Origin: the human T2T-CHM13v2.0 reference genome, Homo sapiens
Strand: one strand, 5' to 3'
DNA: 64,000 nt
Assembly: GCF_009914755.1 (NCBI RefSeq)
Contig: NC_060926.1
The position numbers and the translations under genes were made by a program. Each line of letters opens with the position of its first letter. Within the stretch, counting starts at the first letter, position 1. Under the pieces are notes generated by a model. That model saw only the letters and a program-made list of their open reading frames with translations. It searched no databases and was not told the origin of the DNA. Shown one piece after another: positions 27,327-31,307 of this stretch.

Positions 27327-27367
27327 ACTATACATTTTGTTTTTGTTTTTTTCATGTTTAAACCATC

Positions 27368-27373
27368 TTTATT
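27368..27373 (-). promoter_or_regulatory. Polyadenylation signal AATAAA of the CTAGE transcript
   Basis: Plus-strand TTTATT lies 15 nt from the poly(T) tract ending at 27352. Confidence 0.85.
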
Positions 27374-27593
27374 TACAAAATACTGTCCTGAGAACTGTAA
27401 TTCCATTAAACTTCAATTTGAGAAAAGTGTAATCACTTAAGTAACAGCAGTTACTTAAACTGAAAATGAGATCAGTCAAAGTTGCTTTTGAAGAAAGCAA
27501 AAATATTGTCAGATTTCTTGCTGTGGTTCTGGATGTTCAGTAGCAGGCTCCTTTGAAGGTGGAATCAACCCTCAAGGGAACTTGCTTCTACCT

Positions 27594-29919
27594 TCAGAAT
27601 GTGGGGTTGGGGTAAAATCCAGGTCTTGGATGAAAGTAAGGAGGTAAACCCCTCTGTGGATAGATGTTTCTCATTGCAAATGGAGCATGTGGTGGACCTG
27701 GGAAATCCCTTGATAGAAAATAACCTCGTGAAGCTCCAAACATGGTTCCTGGAGGAGGTTGGGGGAAAGGAGGTCCTCTTCTCGTGAACAGGCCCCTTGT
27801 ATCCACTGGAAACAATGGACCACTGATTGCAGCAAGAGGTGGAGGAATAAAGCCGGGGCCAGTTGCTTCATTTTCGGCAGGGAGAGATGAATCAGGCACA
27901 TTTAAATGACCAGGATCATCTTTGGCATCATTTCTAGTGGATTCCATTTCTGAAGGCATTGACCCATCCATTTTATCCAAACAAGGCATATTAAAACTTC
28001 TGAGTTCTGCTGGTCCAGACAGTCTATCAGAATTAGAATAAAATCTGTCTTCCCTTTGTGGAGGAAGAGCTGAATCAGGATATGATTGTCCTGGTGGAGG
28101 AAACATCATCCTACGGTCCTGTTCCCATGGAGATGAGAGGGACCCAGTGTCAGAAGGAGCCCTGTGAGCATCAGTTGACCTATCACAGCTTGGTTCTCCT
28201 CTTTTATTGGTAATCTGATGGTCCAGAGGATTCCCTGGGCTGCTTGGGCTTCCTCCTCCCCCTGGAAGCACAGGTGAGAGTCTGAGTGGATCCTCCAACA
28301 AAGTTTGAGGAGAGAGAAAAGCTCTCGTTTCAGATGAAGGCTGACCCAACGGTGAGGGACCATATGGCGAACGCTCTCTGCCAAATGTTGTATTTGAAAC
28401 ATCAAGTGCATTAGGATCTTTTTCTAAAAGTTCAGATTTAAACTCTGTTTCAGTTAATTTTTGTTTGTTGTGAGCATTTTCTTTCCTTAAATCATTGAGG
28501 TTTCTTTCAGCAGTCCGAGCTGCCAACCAATTATTATGTCCTTTTTTCTCGTAGGAAATAACCTGCTTTTGATAAAAATGAACAGTTCTCTCCAATTCTT
28601 CTTCAAGATCTTTGGCTAGCTTTCTATAGGTCTCCAGCTCTTCAGTGACATGGCTGATCTTTTCTTCCACTTTAGAAAGCTTCTCTTATTCCTCTATCTG
28701 GTAATTTTCTTCTATTGTCAATTTCCTGTGGAGTGTCATTTCATTTTCTTGATATAGTTCAGTCATTATTTTAAGTTTCTGTTGAAGCTTCTGATTCTCA
28801 CTTTCAAAATATATGTTTTCTGACTGCAAAGATGCTTGTTGAGTCTGAAGATTTTTAATATGCTCGGTAAGCTCTTCCTTTGTTTTGTCCACTTCAGATA
28901 ACTGAATAATAATGTGGTTTCTTTCTCCTTCTAAGGCTTTTAAAGAAACATTTAAGTTAGCAGCATGAATCAGTTTCTTCAAAGCTCCTTTGGGAGGATC
29001 ATCTAAGTAAGCACCATTTTCCGATTGACTGTTCACTTCTAATTCCAAGTTATCATCATCCGTTGTGTCTTCTTCAAGCACAGCAGCCTGATCTTTCATC
29101 ATTGGCAAGTGTCCAGTCAGGGTCTTGATGTGATTTTCTTTATCATTCAGAACTTGTTCTGCTTATACTTTGGAGTCTTCAAATGTTATTTTCTGTTTAT
29201 TAAGTTCAGTCACTTGTTCTTTCCATACTTCAGCTTCTCGCAAAAGCTGTTTCTGGCTTTCCTGAAGTTGAGAATTTTCACTCAAAGCATCTTTTATTGC
29301 TATCGCCCGTCGTTCTTCAGTCATTGGAAGAATCTTGCAGATGATTTTGGCTTCAGCTATTTGTGATTTGAGGGATTTTGACTCATCTTCTAGAGATTGT
29401 ATCCTTTTTGAAATATCTGCCATCAGTTCATCTTGTTGAGAGTGTTTAGATTTCTCTTCTTTTAACTCTATTTCTAGACAGAGGATTTCATCCTCAAGTT
29501 CAGAATTGGACCTGTTCAGCTTTTCACAGGTTGCCTCCAAACTTCGTGCTTCTGCTGCCGCCTTCTCAAAGCTGGCATCCTCTAAAGATGACTGTACTTC
29601 ATAGCCTTCATACTCTTTTGGAATAAGGCTAAATTTTTCAAGTAGTTTACATTTTTCTTCAATTAGTCCAGAAAGCATTTCACCAAGTTTTTTTCTCTCT
29701 TCCCACATAAAGCCGACTCCTAACCGATCTAAAACTTCTCCACAAAAAAAGGAGAACAACAAAAAATCCAACAACAGCTGCACATACCACCAGTTCGCAT
29801 GGAAAACCATAAGGATTCGAATCTTGTCTCATACTCTCAGGTAGTGCTGCCACAATTCTGCGTAGCTCCTCCAGGACCAGCCCCAAGTAGGGCCGAGCGG
29901 TAGCGCCGGGCTCCTCCAT
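27594..29919 (-). pseudogene. Disrupted CTAGE CDS (~774 codons when repaired)
   Basis: ATG at 29919; +1 A in the A7 run at 29694-29688 (GREKK/TW*); in-frame TAA at 29165-29163 (EDSKV*AEQVL) and at 28688-28686 (IEE*EKLSKV); stop at 27596-27594. Confidence 0.93.
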
Positions 29920-30180
29920 AGCGCCAAGCTGCTCTGGCGGTCACCGCAGTTAACACTGGCCACAACAAGCGGTGGAGAACACGCAGCCTTGGGTCTGGAA
30001 CCCGAATCCGCACGCGGCAACCAACCGGAGCGGACTACTGCGGAGCCGGCTGCGGAGGGAGCTGGGGAATGCGGGCACCCCCCACAGGCCTCACAGGCCC
30101 GTGCTGCCCCCCGCACCCTCCCTCGGCCCCCCTGTTACACTTTACATCCTGAGGCAGCGCTGGTCCGAGCCCGACCCGCC
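29880..30180 (-). promoter_or_regulatory. CpG/GC-rich 5' UTR segment of the CTAGE copy (small CpG-island-like patch)
   Basis: Many retained CpGs and C-runs (G-runs on the minus strand) in otherwise AT-rich DNA. Confidence 0.6.
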
Positions 30181-30920
30181 TTAGTTCTGGCAGTTTTCAC
30201 ATCACATATTTTGAAGCTCTATTTTTTGGTGAATACACTTTTAAAATTGCTGTCTTCTTCATGGATTAAACCTTTGATCATTATATAATCTCTCTGTTTC
30301 TGGTAATTTTCTTTGCTTTATCTGATATACGTACAGGCACTGTTGCTTTCCTTTCATTAATGTTTGTGTAATATATCTTTTTTCATCCTTTTAATTTGGC
30401 CTGCCCTGTATTGGTAAATTTCAAGTGAGTTTCTTGTACACAGCACACAAGAAACATATAAGAAAGGGTCATAGTTTTAAATACACTCTTCTATTATCTG
30501 TCTCTTGGTAGATCATTCATAATTAAACTAATTGTTGATACTTTAGTGCATAAGCCTGACATTTTTTGTTTTCTGTATCAATTCTTGTTTCTCTGCTTAT
30601 TTTTGATGACTTCCTGTGGGTCACTTGAACATTTCTTTTAGAATTCCATTTTGTTATTCATAGTGTTTATAGTGTATCTTCTTTTTTATAGTTTTTTTGG
30701 TTGCATTTTATAGCTTAGTGTATATTCCTTTATATATACATTATCACAGTCAATTGGTATCATCTTTAGTCCAGTCTGAGTGAAGTGTAGCAACCCTCTG
30801 TCATATTATGTCTCTTTACCCTCTCAAATTTGTAGTATAATTGTCTTACATACATTTAGAATAACACTAGACAATGCTGTGATTTTTGCTTGAAACATCA
30901 ATCATAATTTAGGAAATTAG
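30181..30920 (-). mobile_element. Old L1M fragment (inter-ORF and ORF2 endonuclease region) directly abutting the CTAGE 5' end
   Basis: Minus strand reads atcaaaggtttaatccatgaagaagacagcaattttaaaagtgtattcacc..agagcttcaaaatatgtgatgtgaaaactgccagaactaa, which is L1 EN-like. Confidence 0.8.
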
Positions 30921-30985
30921 AATCTGTGAAAATAAAGTGAGCATTTTAGAGCTGCCAGAAAGAAATCTGACACAACCTGTTTTGT

Positions 30986-31120
30986 CTTTCATTTTTTCTT
31001 TCTTTCCTTTATATTGATCATAGATATCATGATGCCCTATCTATTTTTTCTTTCTTTCTTTCCTTTCATTTTTCTTTCTTTCCTTTATATTATCATAGAT
31101 ATTATGATGCCCTATCTATT
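30986..31120. repeat. ~60 bp direct duplication
   Basis: ctttcattttt(t)ctttctttcctttatatt(g)atcatagatat(c/t)atgatgccctatctatt at 30986-31045 and 31063-31120. Confidence 0.9.
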
Positions 31121-31147
31121 AACTCCAATATCTGGATTATCTATGAG

Positions 31148-31293
31148 TTTTTTTTTTATACTTTTAAGTTTTAGGGTACATGTGCGCAATGTGCAGGTTT
31201 GTTACATATGTATACATGTGCCATGTTGGTGTGCGGCACCCATTAACTCGTCATTTAGCATTAGGTATATCTCCTAATGCTATCCCTCCCCCT
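31148..31293 (-). mobile_element. 5'-truncated L1PA 3' end (L1PA4-like) with short poly(A)
   Basis: tatacttttaagttttagggtacatgtg..gcaggtttgttacatatgtatacatgtgccatgttggtg..cattaactcgtcatttagcattaggtatatctcctaatgctatccctccccc. Confidence 0.95.
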
Positions 31294-31307
31294 ACTATAC
31301 ATGTTTT

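What the first reader, a model, noticed from the sequence alone, without database searches (positions are those of the whole stretch)
27327..31307. An entire CTAGE gene copy apparently mobilised as an ~4 kb L1 3' transduction
Seen, read on the minus strand: L1PA 3' end (31293-31148) with short poly(A), then ~970 bp of non-CTAGE flank, then the complete CTAGE mRNA copy (30180 onward), AATAAA and a second poly(A) (27352-27335). The L1PA has no TSD next to its own tail and the CTAGE copy has none at its own 5' end. Instead ACTATACAT plus a T-rich extension occurs at 27327 and 31294, bracketing the whole unit. The right site reads AT|AAAA on the minus strand, like an L1 endonuclease site. The outer flanks appear to join into one continuous old L1ME. 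Established: L1 reads through its weak poly(A) signal and transduces 3' flanks; whole-gene duplication by transduction is known (SVA-driven AMAC copies) but rare. Single-exon CTAGE expansion has, to my recollection, been attributed to one retroposition followed by DNA-level duplication. Inference: an active L1PA4-like source element upstream of a CTAGE retrogene acted as a gene-copying driver and may explain dispersed CTAGE paralogues. I cannot confirm that this is unreported.
Basis: partly seen in the sequence, partly recalled or inferred. Interest (0 to 1): 0.9.

Follow-up and report, generated by a model that had tools for sequence, protein, structure and literature searches.

The report
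L1-linked retrocopy of a CTAGE retrogene
CTAGE14P is an RNA-made second-generation copy of a CTAGE retrogene that arrived together with about 1 kb of its upstream DNA and the tail end of an L1 element, most likely carried along by that L1, and it is an inactive pseudogene.

Summary
The anatomy is real. On the minus strand the unit reads: L1PA 3' end (31293-31148, A10 tail), 967 bp of spacer (31147-30181), CTAGE cDNA (30180-27353), AATAAA (27373-27368), poly(A) (27352-27339). A 9-bp exact repeat, 12/14 with its A-rich extension, brackets it at a TAT|AAAA site.

The spacer is the 5' flank of the chr7/chr6 CTAGE retrogenes at 92-93% identity. Of 13 single-exon CTAGE copies, 11 run about 235-250 bp past this poly(A) site. 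Only chr2 and a chr13 copy (C13:74.46 Mb) are polyadenylated there. No paralogue homology crosses the repeats and both flanks are unique. So this is an RNA-mediated copy, not a DNA duplication.

The chr13 copy is its sister (bootstrap 100; 12 shared derived sites). It holds a full-length L1PA plus 3.4 kb of spacer and CTAGE between perfect 16-bp duplications.

L1 3' transduction is the best reading (about 0.6). Caveats:
- CHM13 holds no donor.
- The two L1/spacer junctions differ.
- The L1ME flank claim is unconfirmed.
- The mechanism explains 2 of 13 copies.

It is a new member of a known kind, of moderate interest.

The parts
31294..31307 (-). 5' copy of the target-site duplication, AAAACATGTATAGT (exact 9-mer at 31302-31294). 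The nick site is TAT|AAAA, between 31308 and 31307.
   Evidence: sequence. (chance estimate: 19 of 19,973 random pairs share a 9-mer or longer).
31148..31293 (-). 5'-truncated L1PA 3' end, about 136 bp plus an A10 tail (31157-31148)
   Evidence: many genomic L1 3' ends at 95-97% identity; alignment with 17 other L1 3' ends.
30181..31147 (-). Spacer: the 5' flank of a chr7-type CTAGE retrogene. It contains a roughly 75-bp tandem duplication private to chr2 (31120-30986), an ancient L1 ORF2 fragment (30448-30231), and the upstream copy only of the primary retrocopy's own duplication GAAAACTGCCAGAACT (30198-30183).
   Evidence: 92-93% identity to C7:145.46, C7:144.93, C7:145.04 and C6:132.90; the private duplication; tblastx match to L1 ORF2; the downstream copy of that duplication lies after the distal poly(A) in chr7.
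27353..30180 (-). CTAGE cDNA copy (CTAGE14P). ATG at 29919-29917; AATAAA at 27373-27368; the transcript ends at the proximal poly(A) site.
   Evidence: 11 of 13 copies read on past this point; three internal stops in the long frame, and the ATG lies in another frame.
27339..27352 (-). Poly(A) tail, A7CA5C
27327..27338 (-). 3' copy of the target-site duplication, AAAATGTATAGT (exact 9-mer at 27335-27327)

Best explanation
CTAGE14P and the roughly 1.1 kb upstream of it are a single L1-mediated insertion, made from a read-through transcript.

Proposed sequence of events:
1. A primary CTAGE retrocopy of the chr7 lineage sat inside an ancient L1 ORF2 fragment.
2. In a now-missing copy of that lineage, an L1PA lay just upstream in the same orientation.
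3. Transcription from the L1 ran through the L1's own weak poly(A) signal, through 967 bp of flank and through the whole CTAGE retrogene. It was cleaved at the proximal CTAGE AATAAA.
4. L1 proteins nicked chr2 at TAT|AAAA and reverse-transcribed the RNA from its poly(A) tail. Synthesis stopped 146 bp into the L1.
5. The copy then decayed into a pseudogene.

Shown:
- One duplication encloses the L1 end, spacer and CTAGE.
- The copy was made through RNA.
- The template was a retrogene locus, not the parent gene.
- There is a sister copy on chr13 whose L1 is full length and starts at the L1 5' end.

Inferred:
- The L1 was physically upstream in the donor and drove the transcript.
- The date is roughly 15-20 Myr. 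This rests on terminal branches of 0.020-0.022 and on substitution rates I recalled.
For: - **One event.** The 9-bp exact repeat (12/14 extended) sits exactly at the L1 5' truncation point and after the second poly(A), at an endonuclease-like site. There is no repeat between the L1 tail and the cargo.
- **RNA origin.** Of the 13 single-exon copies, 11 continue past ...AATAAAGATGGTTT..ATGA into a shared 3' UTR of about 235-250 bp, and so does the parent gene. The chr2 and C13:74.46 copies have an A-rich tail there. Chr2 keeps only the upstream copy of the primary retrocopy's 16-bp duplication.
- **Not a DNA duplication.** None of the 12 paralogues aligns outside window 31163-27330. Both 500-bp flanks match only themselves.
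- **Cargo source.** The spacer and CTAGE are 93-94% identical to four chr7/chr6 loci, where the spacer continues upstream without an L1PA.
- **Sister copy.** C13:74.46 carries a 6,184-bp L1PA that starts at GGGGTGGAGCCAAGATGG, a (TAA)n tail and a 3,367-bp cargo. The composite is 9,551 bp between two perfect copies of AAAAAATATCTATTCT at a TT|AAAAAA site. It groups with chr2 at UFboot 100 / SH-aLRT 98. The two share 12 derived sites, against 3 and 2 for the alternative pairings.
- **The L1 is not older than its cargo.** The chr13 L1 has 23 private substitutions in 1,267 columns (1.8%). Its cargo has 40 in about 2,650 (1.5%) and a terminal branch of 0.020.
- **Junction sites.** In the L1-free chr7 paralogue both junctions fall at T|AAAA sites: tt|aaaaacaaaCTCATAG and ctgt|aaaatgcaacc.
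- **Normal start site.** An oligo-capping study places CTAGE6 in the class whose promoter lies in the retrocopied part (PMC2386082, passages read). Ordinary CTAGE transcripts would therefore not carry about 1 kb of upstream flank.
Against: - **No donor.** Six loci in CHM13 carry the spacer (self, three on chr7, one on chr6, one on chr13). None has an L1PA joined to it at window position 31147. All 26 candidates for the CTAGE 3' kb were scored and no further copy or truncated orphan turned up.
- **Different junctions.** Chr2 joins at 31147 and chr13 at about 30740. Transduction therefore needs either two donor L1s or one donor plus a loss of about 407 bp. The tails also differ in type: A10 in chr2, (TAA)n in chr13.
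- **The chr2 junction is imperfect.** The C of the paralogue's aaaaacaaa is absent. A donor duplication starting there leaves almost no L1 poly(A) of its own.
- **Rival readings fit the same facts.** A-run junctions and an outer duplication are equally expected from insertion into a pre-existing L1 tail or from template switching.
- **Tail-adjacent insertion may occur in this family anyway.** An older CTAGE copy on chr9 also abuts an older L1 tail.
- **Weak dating on chr2.** The 146-bp L1 piece is too short to date well.
- **No orthologous sites** from other primates could be examined.
Confidence: 0.6

Rival explanations
1. Nested insertion. A 146-bp L1PA fragment was already at the chr2 site with the ATGTATAGT duplication. 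Later a trans-mobilised transcript of a CTAGE retrogene locus, starting at least 1 kb upstream, inserted into the L1's poly(A) tail in the same orientation. Its own duplication consists only of A residues and is invisible.
For: The anatomy is identical to what is seen. Both junctions lie at A-runs of the template, as annealing to an A-tail would give. The missing C at the chr2 junction fits a join inside the A-run. An older chr9 CTAGE copy also lies directly after an older L1 tail.
Against: - It needs an unusual transcript carrying about 0.56-1 kb of upstream flank, twice.
- It needs both sister copies to land in L1PA tails.
- The chr13 L1 is not detectably older than its cargo: 1.8% against 1.5-2.0%.
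- On chr13 only 9 nt lie between the cleavage site and the outer duplication. That leaves little room for a new poly(A), an A-only duplication and the rest of the old tail.
Confidence: 0.15
2. Passenger L1. The donor did carry an L1PA at position 31147, but the L1 was not the driver. A longer host transcript containing it was retrotransposed in trans and 5'-truncated inside the L1.
For: Only 146 bp of L1 survive on chr2, so the start of the RNA is unknown.
Against: The sister chr13 composite begins exactly at the L1 5' end next to its duplication, as expected for an L1-promoted RNA. L1 proteins prefer their own RNA (established knowledge; no call tests it).
Confidence: 0.1
3. Template-switch chimera. 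Reverse transcription began on a CTAGE-locus RNA, then jumped from an A-rich stretch of that RNA onto the poly(A) end of an L1 RNA. It copied 146 nt of L1 on chr2 and all of the L1 on chr13.
For: One mechanism would explain two different junctions, both at A-runs, without any donor L1. It would also make the L1 the same age as the insertion. It might cover the chr9 copy too.
Against: Catalogued L1 chimeras have the partner RNA on the 5' side of the L1, not the L1 on the 5' side of an mRNA (PMC13174262: outline and passages read, no CTAGE in the main text). It still needs the unusual upstream-starting transcript. There is no direct evidence.
Confidence: 0.08
4. DNA-level (segmental) duplication of an L1PA-spacer-CTAGE block.
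For: The family is reported to have grown by DNA-based duplication (Zhang and Su 2014, as cited in PMC4949931). The chr7/chr6 copies and several old copies do share flanks.
Against: The unit ends in a poly(A) tail at a site where 11 of the 13 copies read on. It is bracketed by a duplication at an endonuclease-like site. No paralogue homology lies outside it, and its flanks are unique.
Confidence: 0.02

Closest known systems
L1 3' transduction (Moran 1999; Goodier 2000; Pickeral 2000, all recalled; described in PMC5470649 and PMC9311842, passages read)
   Same: A sense L1 3' end with its own A-tail is followed by non-L1 DNA that ends at a downstream poly(A) signal. One duplication encloses both, at an endonuclease-type site. 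The cargo maps to another locus.
   Different: - The cargo is long: 3.8 kb here and 3.4 kb on chr13. In a survey of polymorphic events the median was 63 bp and the maximum 997 bp, a limit set by the method (PMC9311842).
- The cargo is a complete retrogene.
- No donor L1 survives in this genome.
- The two sister offspring have different L1/cargo junctions.
SVA-mediated transduction of AMAC1 copies (Xing et al. 2006; recalled, not read here)
   Same: A whole intronless gene copy is carried to new loci as the 3' cargo of a non-LTR retrotransposon.
   Different: The carrier here is an L1, not an SVA. There are two copies and both are pseudogenes. No function is evident.
Ordinary processed pseudogene
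   Same: Intronless, with a poly(A) tail, a target-site duplication and an L1 endonuclease-like site.
   Different: It does not start at the mRNA 5' end. It carries 967 bp of the 5' flank of another retrocopy plus an L1 end. Its template was a retrogene locus, not the parent gene.
L1 chimeric insertions such as U6/L1, Alu/L1 and mRNA/L1 (PMC13174262)
   Same: Two RNAs in the same orientation inside one duplication.
   Different: In the catalogued chimeras the partner lies 5' of the L1. Here the L1 lies 5' of the partner, with the L1 tail between them.

Membership tests
L1 3' transduction offspring | A sense-oriented L1 3' end with an A-rich tail at the 5' side of the unit | tested here: met
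   31293-31148, 95-97% identical to genomic L1 3' ends, A10 tail.
L1 3' transduction offspring | Non-L1 cargo ending at a downstream poly(A) signal with a second poly(A) tail | tested here: met
   AATAAA at 27373-27368 and tail at 27352-27339, at a site where 11 of the 13 copies read on.
L1 3' transduction offspring | One target-site duplication encloses the L1 plus cargo, with none between them, at an endonuclease-type site | tested here: met
   a 9-bp exact repeat (12/14 extended) at TAT|AAAA.
L1 3' transduction offspring | The cargo maps to a distinct source locus | tested here: met
   the 5' flank and body of chr7/chr6-type CTAGE retrogenes, 93-94% identical.
L1 3' transduction offspring | A donor locus with an L1 directly upstream of the cargo at the same junction | tested here: not met
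   none of the 4 chr7/chr6 loci has an L1PA there. Chr13 has one at a different junction. No further copy exists in CHM13. A donor lost from, or absent in, this genome is not excluded.
L1 3' transduction offspring | All-or-none presence at orthologous sites (never the L1 alone) | not testable with these tools
   No primate genomes were available.
Segmental (DNA-based) duplicate | Homology with a paralogue continues through the ends of the gene into the flanks | tested here: not met
   none of the 12 paralogues does; the flanks are unique.
Ordinary processed pseudogene of MIA2/cTAGE5 | Starts at or inside the mRNA, with no foreign 5' flank | tested here: not met
   967 bp of another retrocopy's 5' flank; parent homology begins only at 30179.
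Nested insertion into an older L1 tail | The host L1 is older than the insert, and an L1-only state exists at orthologous sites | tested here: inconclusive
   the chr13 L1 is not detectably older than its cargo (1.8% against 1.5-2.0%); the 146-bp chr2 piece is too short to date. Orthologues are not testable.

The most novel reading that the evidence does not exclude
The L1 ends in front of three CTAGE copies (chr2, chr13:74.46 and the old chr9 copy) are not donors or bystanders. They would be products of a reverse-order chimera. In this reading L1 reverse transcriptase copies a cellular RNA, then jumps from an A-rich stretch onto the poly(A) end of an L1 RNA and continues into the L1. That would be a class of L1-5'/mRNA-3' chimera missing from current catalogues, and it would mimic 3' transduction.
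Probability: 0.08. Interest if true: 0.6.

Novelty: new member of a known kind. Interest (0 to 1): 0.35.

Why it matters
**Family history.** The published account of the CTAGE family is one retroposition followed by DNA-based duplications (Zhang and Su 2014). I saw it only as cited in PMC4949931; the paper itself is not held. At least 2 of the 13 single-exon copies are instead second-generation RNA copies tied to L1PA elements.

**A clear example.** The chr13 composite (full-length L1, 3.4 kb carrying a whole gene, perfect 16-bp duplications) illustrates well how an L1 can move an entire gene.

**Limits.** Both copies are pseudogenes. The mechanism is well known, and no open question is settled.

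**In print?** No paper in the searched library links CTAGE to L1 transduction. Supplements of transduction surveys and the Zhang and Su paper could not be seen, and they may list these loci.

Tried and rejected
- **Flank continuity (old L1ME).** Genome searches with each 500-bp flank returned only the flank itself. Blastn and tblastx of 3.7-3.8 kb on each side against an L1PA found nothing. The claim stays untested because no repeat library or orthologue was available.
- **Dating the chr13 L1 against its five best genomic matches.** Those five are younger elements, 97-98.7% alike. The 93 'private' sites in 3,493 columns therefore mix subfamily differences with age, and I dropped this estimate. 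I used six similarly diverged L1 3' regions instead. Nine of the 15 comparator loci were left out there because their overlap was under 1,200 bp.
- **Same L1 or different L1 on chr2 and chr13.** The two 146-bp ends differ at about 8 sites, several of them CpG transitions, and in tail type. This is compatible with either answer.
- **Splicing as the cause of the shorter chr13 spacer.** The junction has no splice-site form, so I rejected it.
- **Chr13 as the direct donor of chr2.** The nearly equal terminal branches (0.020 and 0.022) would fit. But chr13 lacks spacer 31147 to about 30740. This would need a later loss of about 407 bp beside the L1 tail, and it remains untested.
- **Target-site duplication of the chr9 copy.** I found only a low-complexity candidate, so it is unresolved.
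- **Closed or missing sources.** The Zhang and Su paper was not held.
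Full report
**1. What is in the window**

Read on the minus strand, the order is as follows.
- Flank ...CTGTAT.
- AAAACATGTATAGT (31307-31294).
- An L1 3' end (31293-31148) that finishes in ten A.
- 967 bp of non-CTAGE sequence (31147-30181).
- A CTAGE cDNA from 30180, with its ATG at 29919.
- AATAAA (27373-27368).
- A tail, A7CA5C (27352-27339).
- AAAATGTATAGT (27338-27327), then unrelated flank.

The exact repeat is 9 bp, or 12 of 14 with the A-rich extension. It touches the L1 truncation point on one side and the end of the tail on the other. Among random pairs of 20/21-mers from the window, 19 of 19,973 share a word of 9 or more anywhere. The requirement that the word abut both boundaries makes chance far less likely still.

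The upstream site reads TAT|AAAA, close to the L1 endonuclease preference. The L1 piece is 95-97% identical to many genomic L1 3' ends.

The long reading frame of the CTAGE part has three internal stops, and the ATG lies in another frame. This agrees with the RefSeq label 'pseudogene'.

**2. What the spacer is**

The window's own genome could be searched. The spacer has five close relatives:
- C7:145.46 Mb, C7:144.93 Mb, C7:145.04 Mb and C6:132.90 Mb, at 92-93% identity.
- C13:74.46 Mb, at 96% identity, covering only the proximal 540 bp or so.

All its other hits are 65-76% matches to an old repeat. Tblastx places window 30448-30231 on the 5' part of L1 ORF2, in sense orientation.

In the chr7/chr6 loci the spacer runs on upstream with no L1PA. 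Just before the cDNA (30198-30183) lies GAAAACTGCCAGAACT. In the chr7 copies the same 16-mer recurs after their distal poly(A). It is therefore the target-site duplication of the primary chr7-lineage retrocopy. Chr2 carries only the upstream copy.

**3. The family in this genome**

A search with the unit plus 500 bp on each side, and one with the last kilobase of CTAGE (all 26 candidates scored), found 13 single-exon copies and the exons of the parent gene on chr14.
- Seven old copies (86-88% identical to chr2) start at the mRNA 5' end, or 60 bp inside it.
- Four chr7/chr6 copies and C13:74.46 share the spacer.

None of the 12 paralogues aligns outside window 31163-27330. Each 500-bp flank of the chr2 unit matches only itself.

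The decisive point is the 3' end. Eleven of the 13 copies, and the parent gene, continue past ...AATAAAGATGGTTT..ATGA into a shared 3' UTR of about 235-250 bp, up to a distal signal. The chr2 and C13:74.46 copies have an A-rich tail at that point.

These two are therefore copies made from RNA cleaved at the proximal site. The RNA included the upstream flank of a retrogene locus. This rules out DNA duplication and also a direct copy of the parent mRNA.

**4. The sister copy on chr13**

C13:74.46 has a 6,184-bp L1PA, counting its tail. The L1 begins at GGGGTGGAGCCAAGATGG, has a (TAA)n tail, and is followed by the spacer from about window 30740, then CTAGE and a short tail. The composite measures 9,551 bp between two perfect copies of AAAAAATATCTATTCT at a TT|AAAAAA site.

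In a maximum-likelihood tree, chr2 and C13:74.46 are sisters (UFboot 100, SH-aLRT 98). The stem is 0.0054 and the terminal branches are 0.022 and 0.020.

Site patterns in about 2,650 polarised columns:

| Pattern | Sites |
|---|---|
| Derived in all six spacer-bearing copies | 103 |
| Derived in the chr7/chr6 group only | 42 |
| Private to chr2 | 55 |
| Private to chr13 | 40 |
| Shared by chr2 and chr13 only | 12 |
| Shared by chr2 and the chr7/chr6 group only | 3 |
| Shared by chr13 and the chr7/chr6 group only | 2 |

Both copies thus stem from one source lineage that is distinct from every surviving chr7/chr6 copy. No member of that lineage other than these two exists in CHM13.

**5. Mechanism**

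Three features are the textbook signs of L1 3' transduction (PMC5470649 and PMC9311842, passages read):
- an L1 end in sense orientation with its own tail;
- foreign DNA ending at the next usable poly(A) signal;
- one duplication around everything.

The chr13 sister adds the strongest sign: a full-length L1 whose first base follows the duplication. That is what an L1-promoted read-through RNA would give.

Three further observations point the same way.
- The chr13 L1 is not older than its cargo. It has 23 private substitutions in 1,267 columns (1.8%). Its cargo has 1.5%, with a terminal branch of 0.020.
- Both L1/spacer junctions fall at T|AAAA sites of the L1-free chr7 sequence.
- The usual CTAGE6 start site is reported to lie within the retrocopied part (PMC2386082, passages read). 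Ordinary transcripts should therefore not carry about 1 kb of upstream flank.

**6. What weakens it**

- No donor is present in CHM13.
- The junctions differ: 31147 on chr2 and about 30740 on chr13. The tails differ too: A10 against (TAA)n. Transduction therefore needs two donor L1s, or one donor plus a loss of about 407 bp between two A-rich stretches.
- At the chr2 junction the C of the paralogue's aaaaacaaa is missing.
- Insertion of a trans-mobilised long transcript into the tail of an older L1 would give the same picture. So would a jump of the reverse transcriptase onto the poly(A) end of an L1 RNA. Both would also place the junctions at A-runs.
- An old CTAGE copy on chr9 also lies directly behind an older L1 tail. 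This shows either that tail-directed insertion happens in this family or that something more systematic is at work.

My weights are: transduction about 0.6, nested insertion 0.15, passenger L1 in a host transcript 0.1, template switch 0.08, DNA duplication 0.02 or less.

**7. Date**

The terminal branches of 0.020-0.022, combined with a recalled primate rate of about 0.1% per Myr, suggest roughly 15-20 Myr. That fits the time of middle L1PA subfamilies. I could not type the subfamily, so 'L1PA4-like' stays unverified.

**8. Comparison with print**

The family history available to me is one retroposition followed by DNA-based duplications (Zhang and Su 2014, seen only as cited in PMC4949931; the paper itself is not held).

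Five searches found no paper that links CTAGE to L1 transduction:
- CTAGE with retroposition;
- CTAGE with transduction and LINE-1;
- CTAGE14P;
- CTAGE with family terms;
- CTAGE11P.

The recent catalogue of L1 chimeras covers partners on the 5' side of the L1 and does not mention CTAGE in its main text (PMC13174262). Its supplements were not seen.

**9. Verdict**

- The reading as one L1-linked, RNA-mediated event is well supported.
- 3' transduction is the best mechanism but is not proven.
- It accounts for 2 of the 13 copies, both of them pseudogenes.
- This is a new member of a known kind, of moderate interest.

Noticed in passing
L026/L051/L052 = G000:C13:74461443-74471025 (minus strand): A 9,551-bp composite of a full-length L1PA (6,184 bp including a (TAA)n tail) plus 3,367 bp of CTAGE spacer and cDNA. 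It lies between two perfect 16-bp duplications, AAAAAATATCTATTCT, at a TT|AAAAAA site. It is probably the chr13q22 CTAGE pseudogene, but that name is recalled and not checked.
   Followed up: yes
L032/L053 = G000:C9:27618833-27626013 (minus strand): An old CTAGE copy (86.5% identical to chr2) starts at the mRNA 5' end directly after the tail of an older L1, whose 3' end is 79% identical to the L1PA piece. That L1 seems to reach an L1 5' end about 4.4 kb upstream. Only a low-complexity candidate duplication, AAAAAAAG(G)AAAA, was seen around the pair.
   Followed up: partly
window 30183-30198; L022/L024 about 250 bp past the proximal poly(A) site: The chr7-lineage primary retrocopy has its own 16-bp duplication, GAAAACTGCCAGAACT, inside an ancient L1 ORF2 fragment. 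The chr18 / chr13:51 / chr6:169 group has a different 5' flank, and chr10 has a longer 5' UTR. The family therefore seems to include more than one primary retroposition.
   Followed up: partly
window 30986-31120: A tandem duplication of about 75 bp in the spacer is private to the chr2 copy. It is absent from all four chr7/chr6 paralogues.
   Followed up: partly
window about 30720-30740 and the paralogous positions: A 21-bp tandem unit (cactaagctRtaaaatgcaac) is present twice in C7:145.46 and C6:132.90. It is partly present in C7:144.93 and C7:145.04, and present once in chr2. The chr13 L1 tail joins inside the first unit.
   Followed up: partly
window 29920-30180: The RefSeq CTAGE14P span (27351-29919) starts at the ATG. 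Homology to the cDNA and to the parent's first exon runs 261 bp further, to 30180, so the annotated pseudogene omits its 5' UTR.
   Followed up: yes
L028 and L033 (C13:49.11 and C13:57.75 Mb), L030 (C13:51.12 Mb): The two chr13 copies that start 60 bp inside the cDNA share both of their flanks with each other. They share their 3' flank with C13:51.12. This is what DNA-level duplicates of one old retrocopy would look like.
   Followed up: partly
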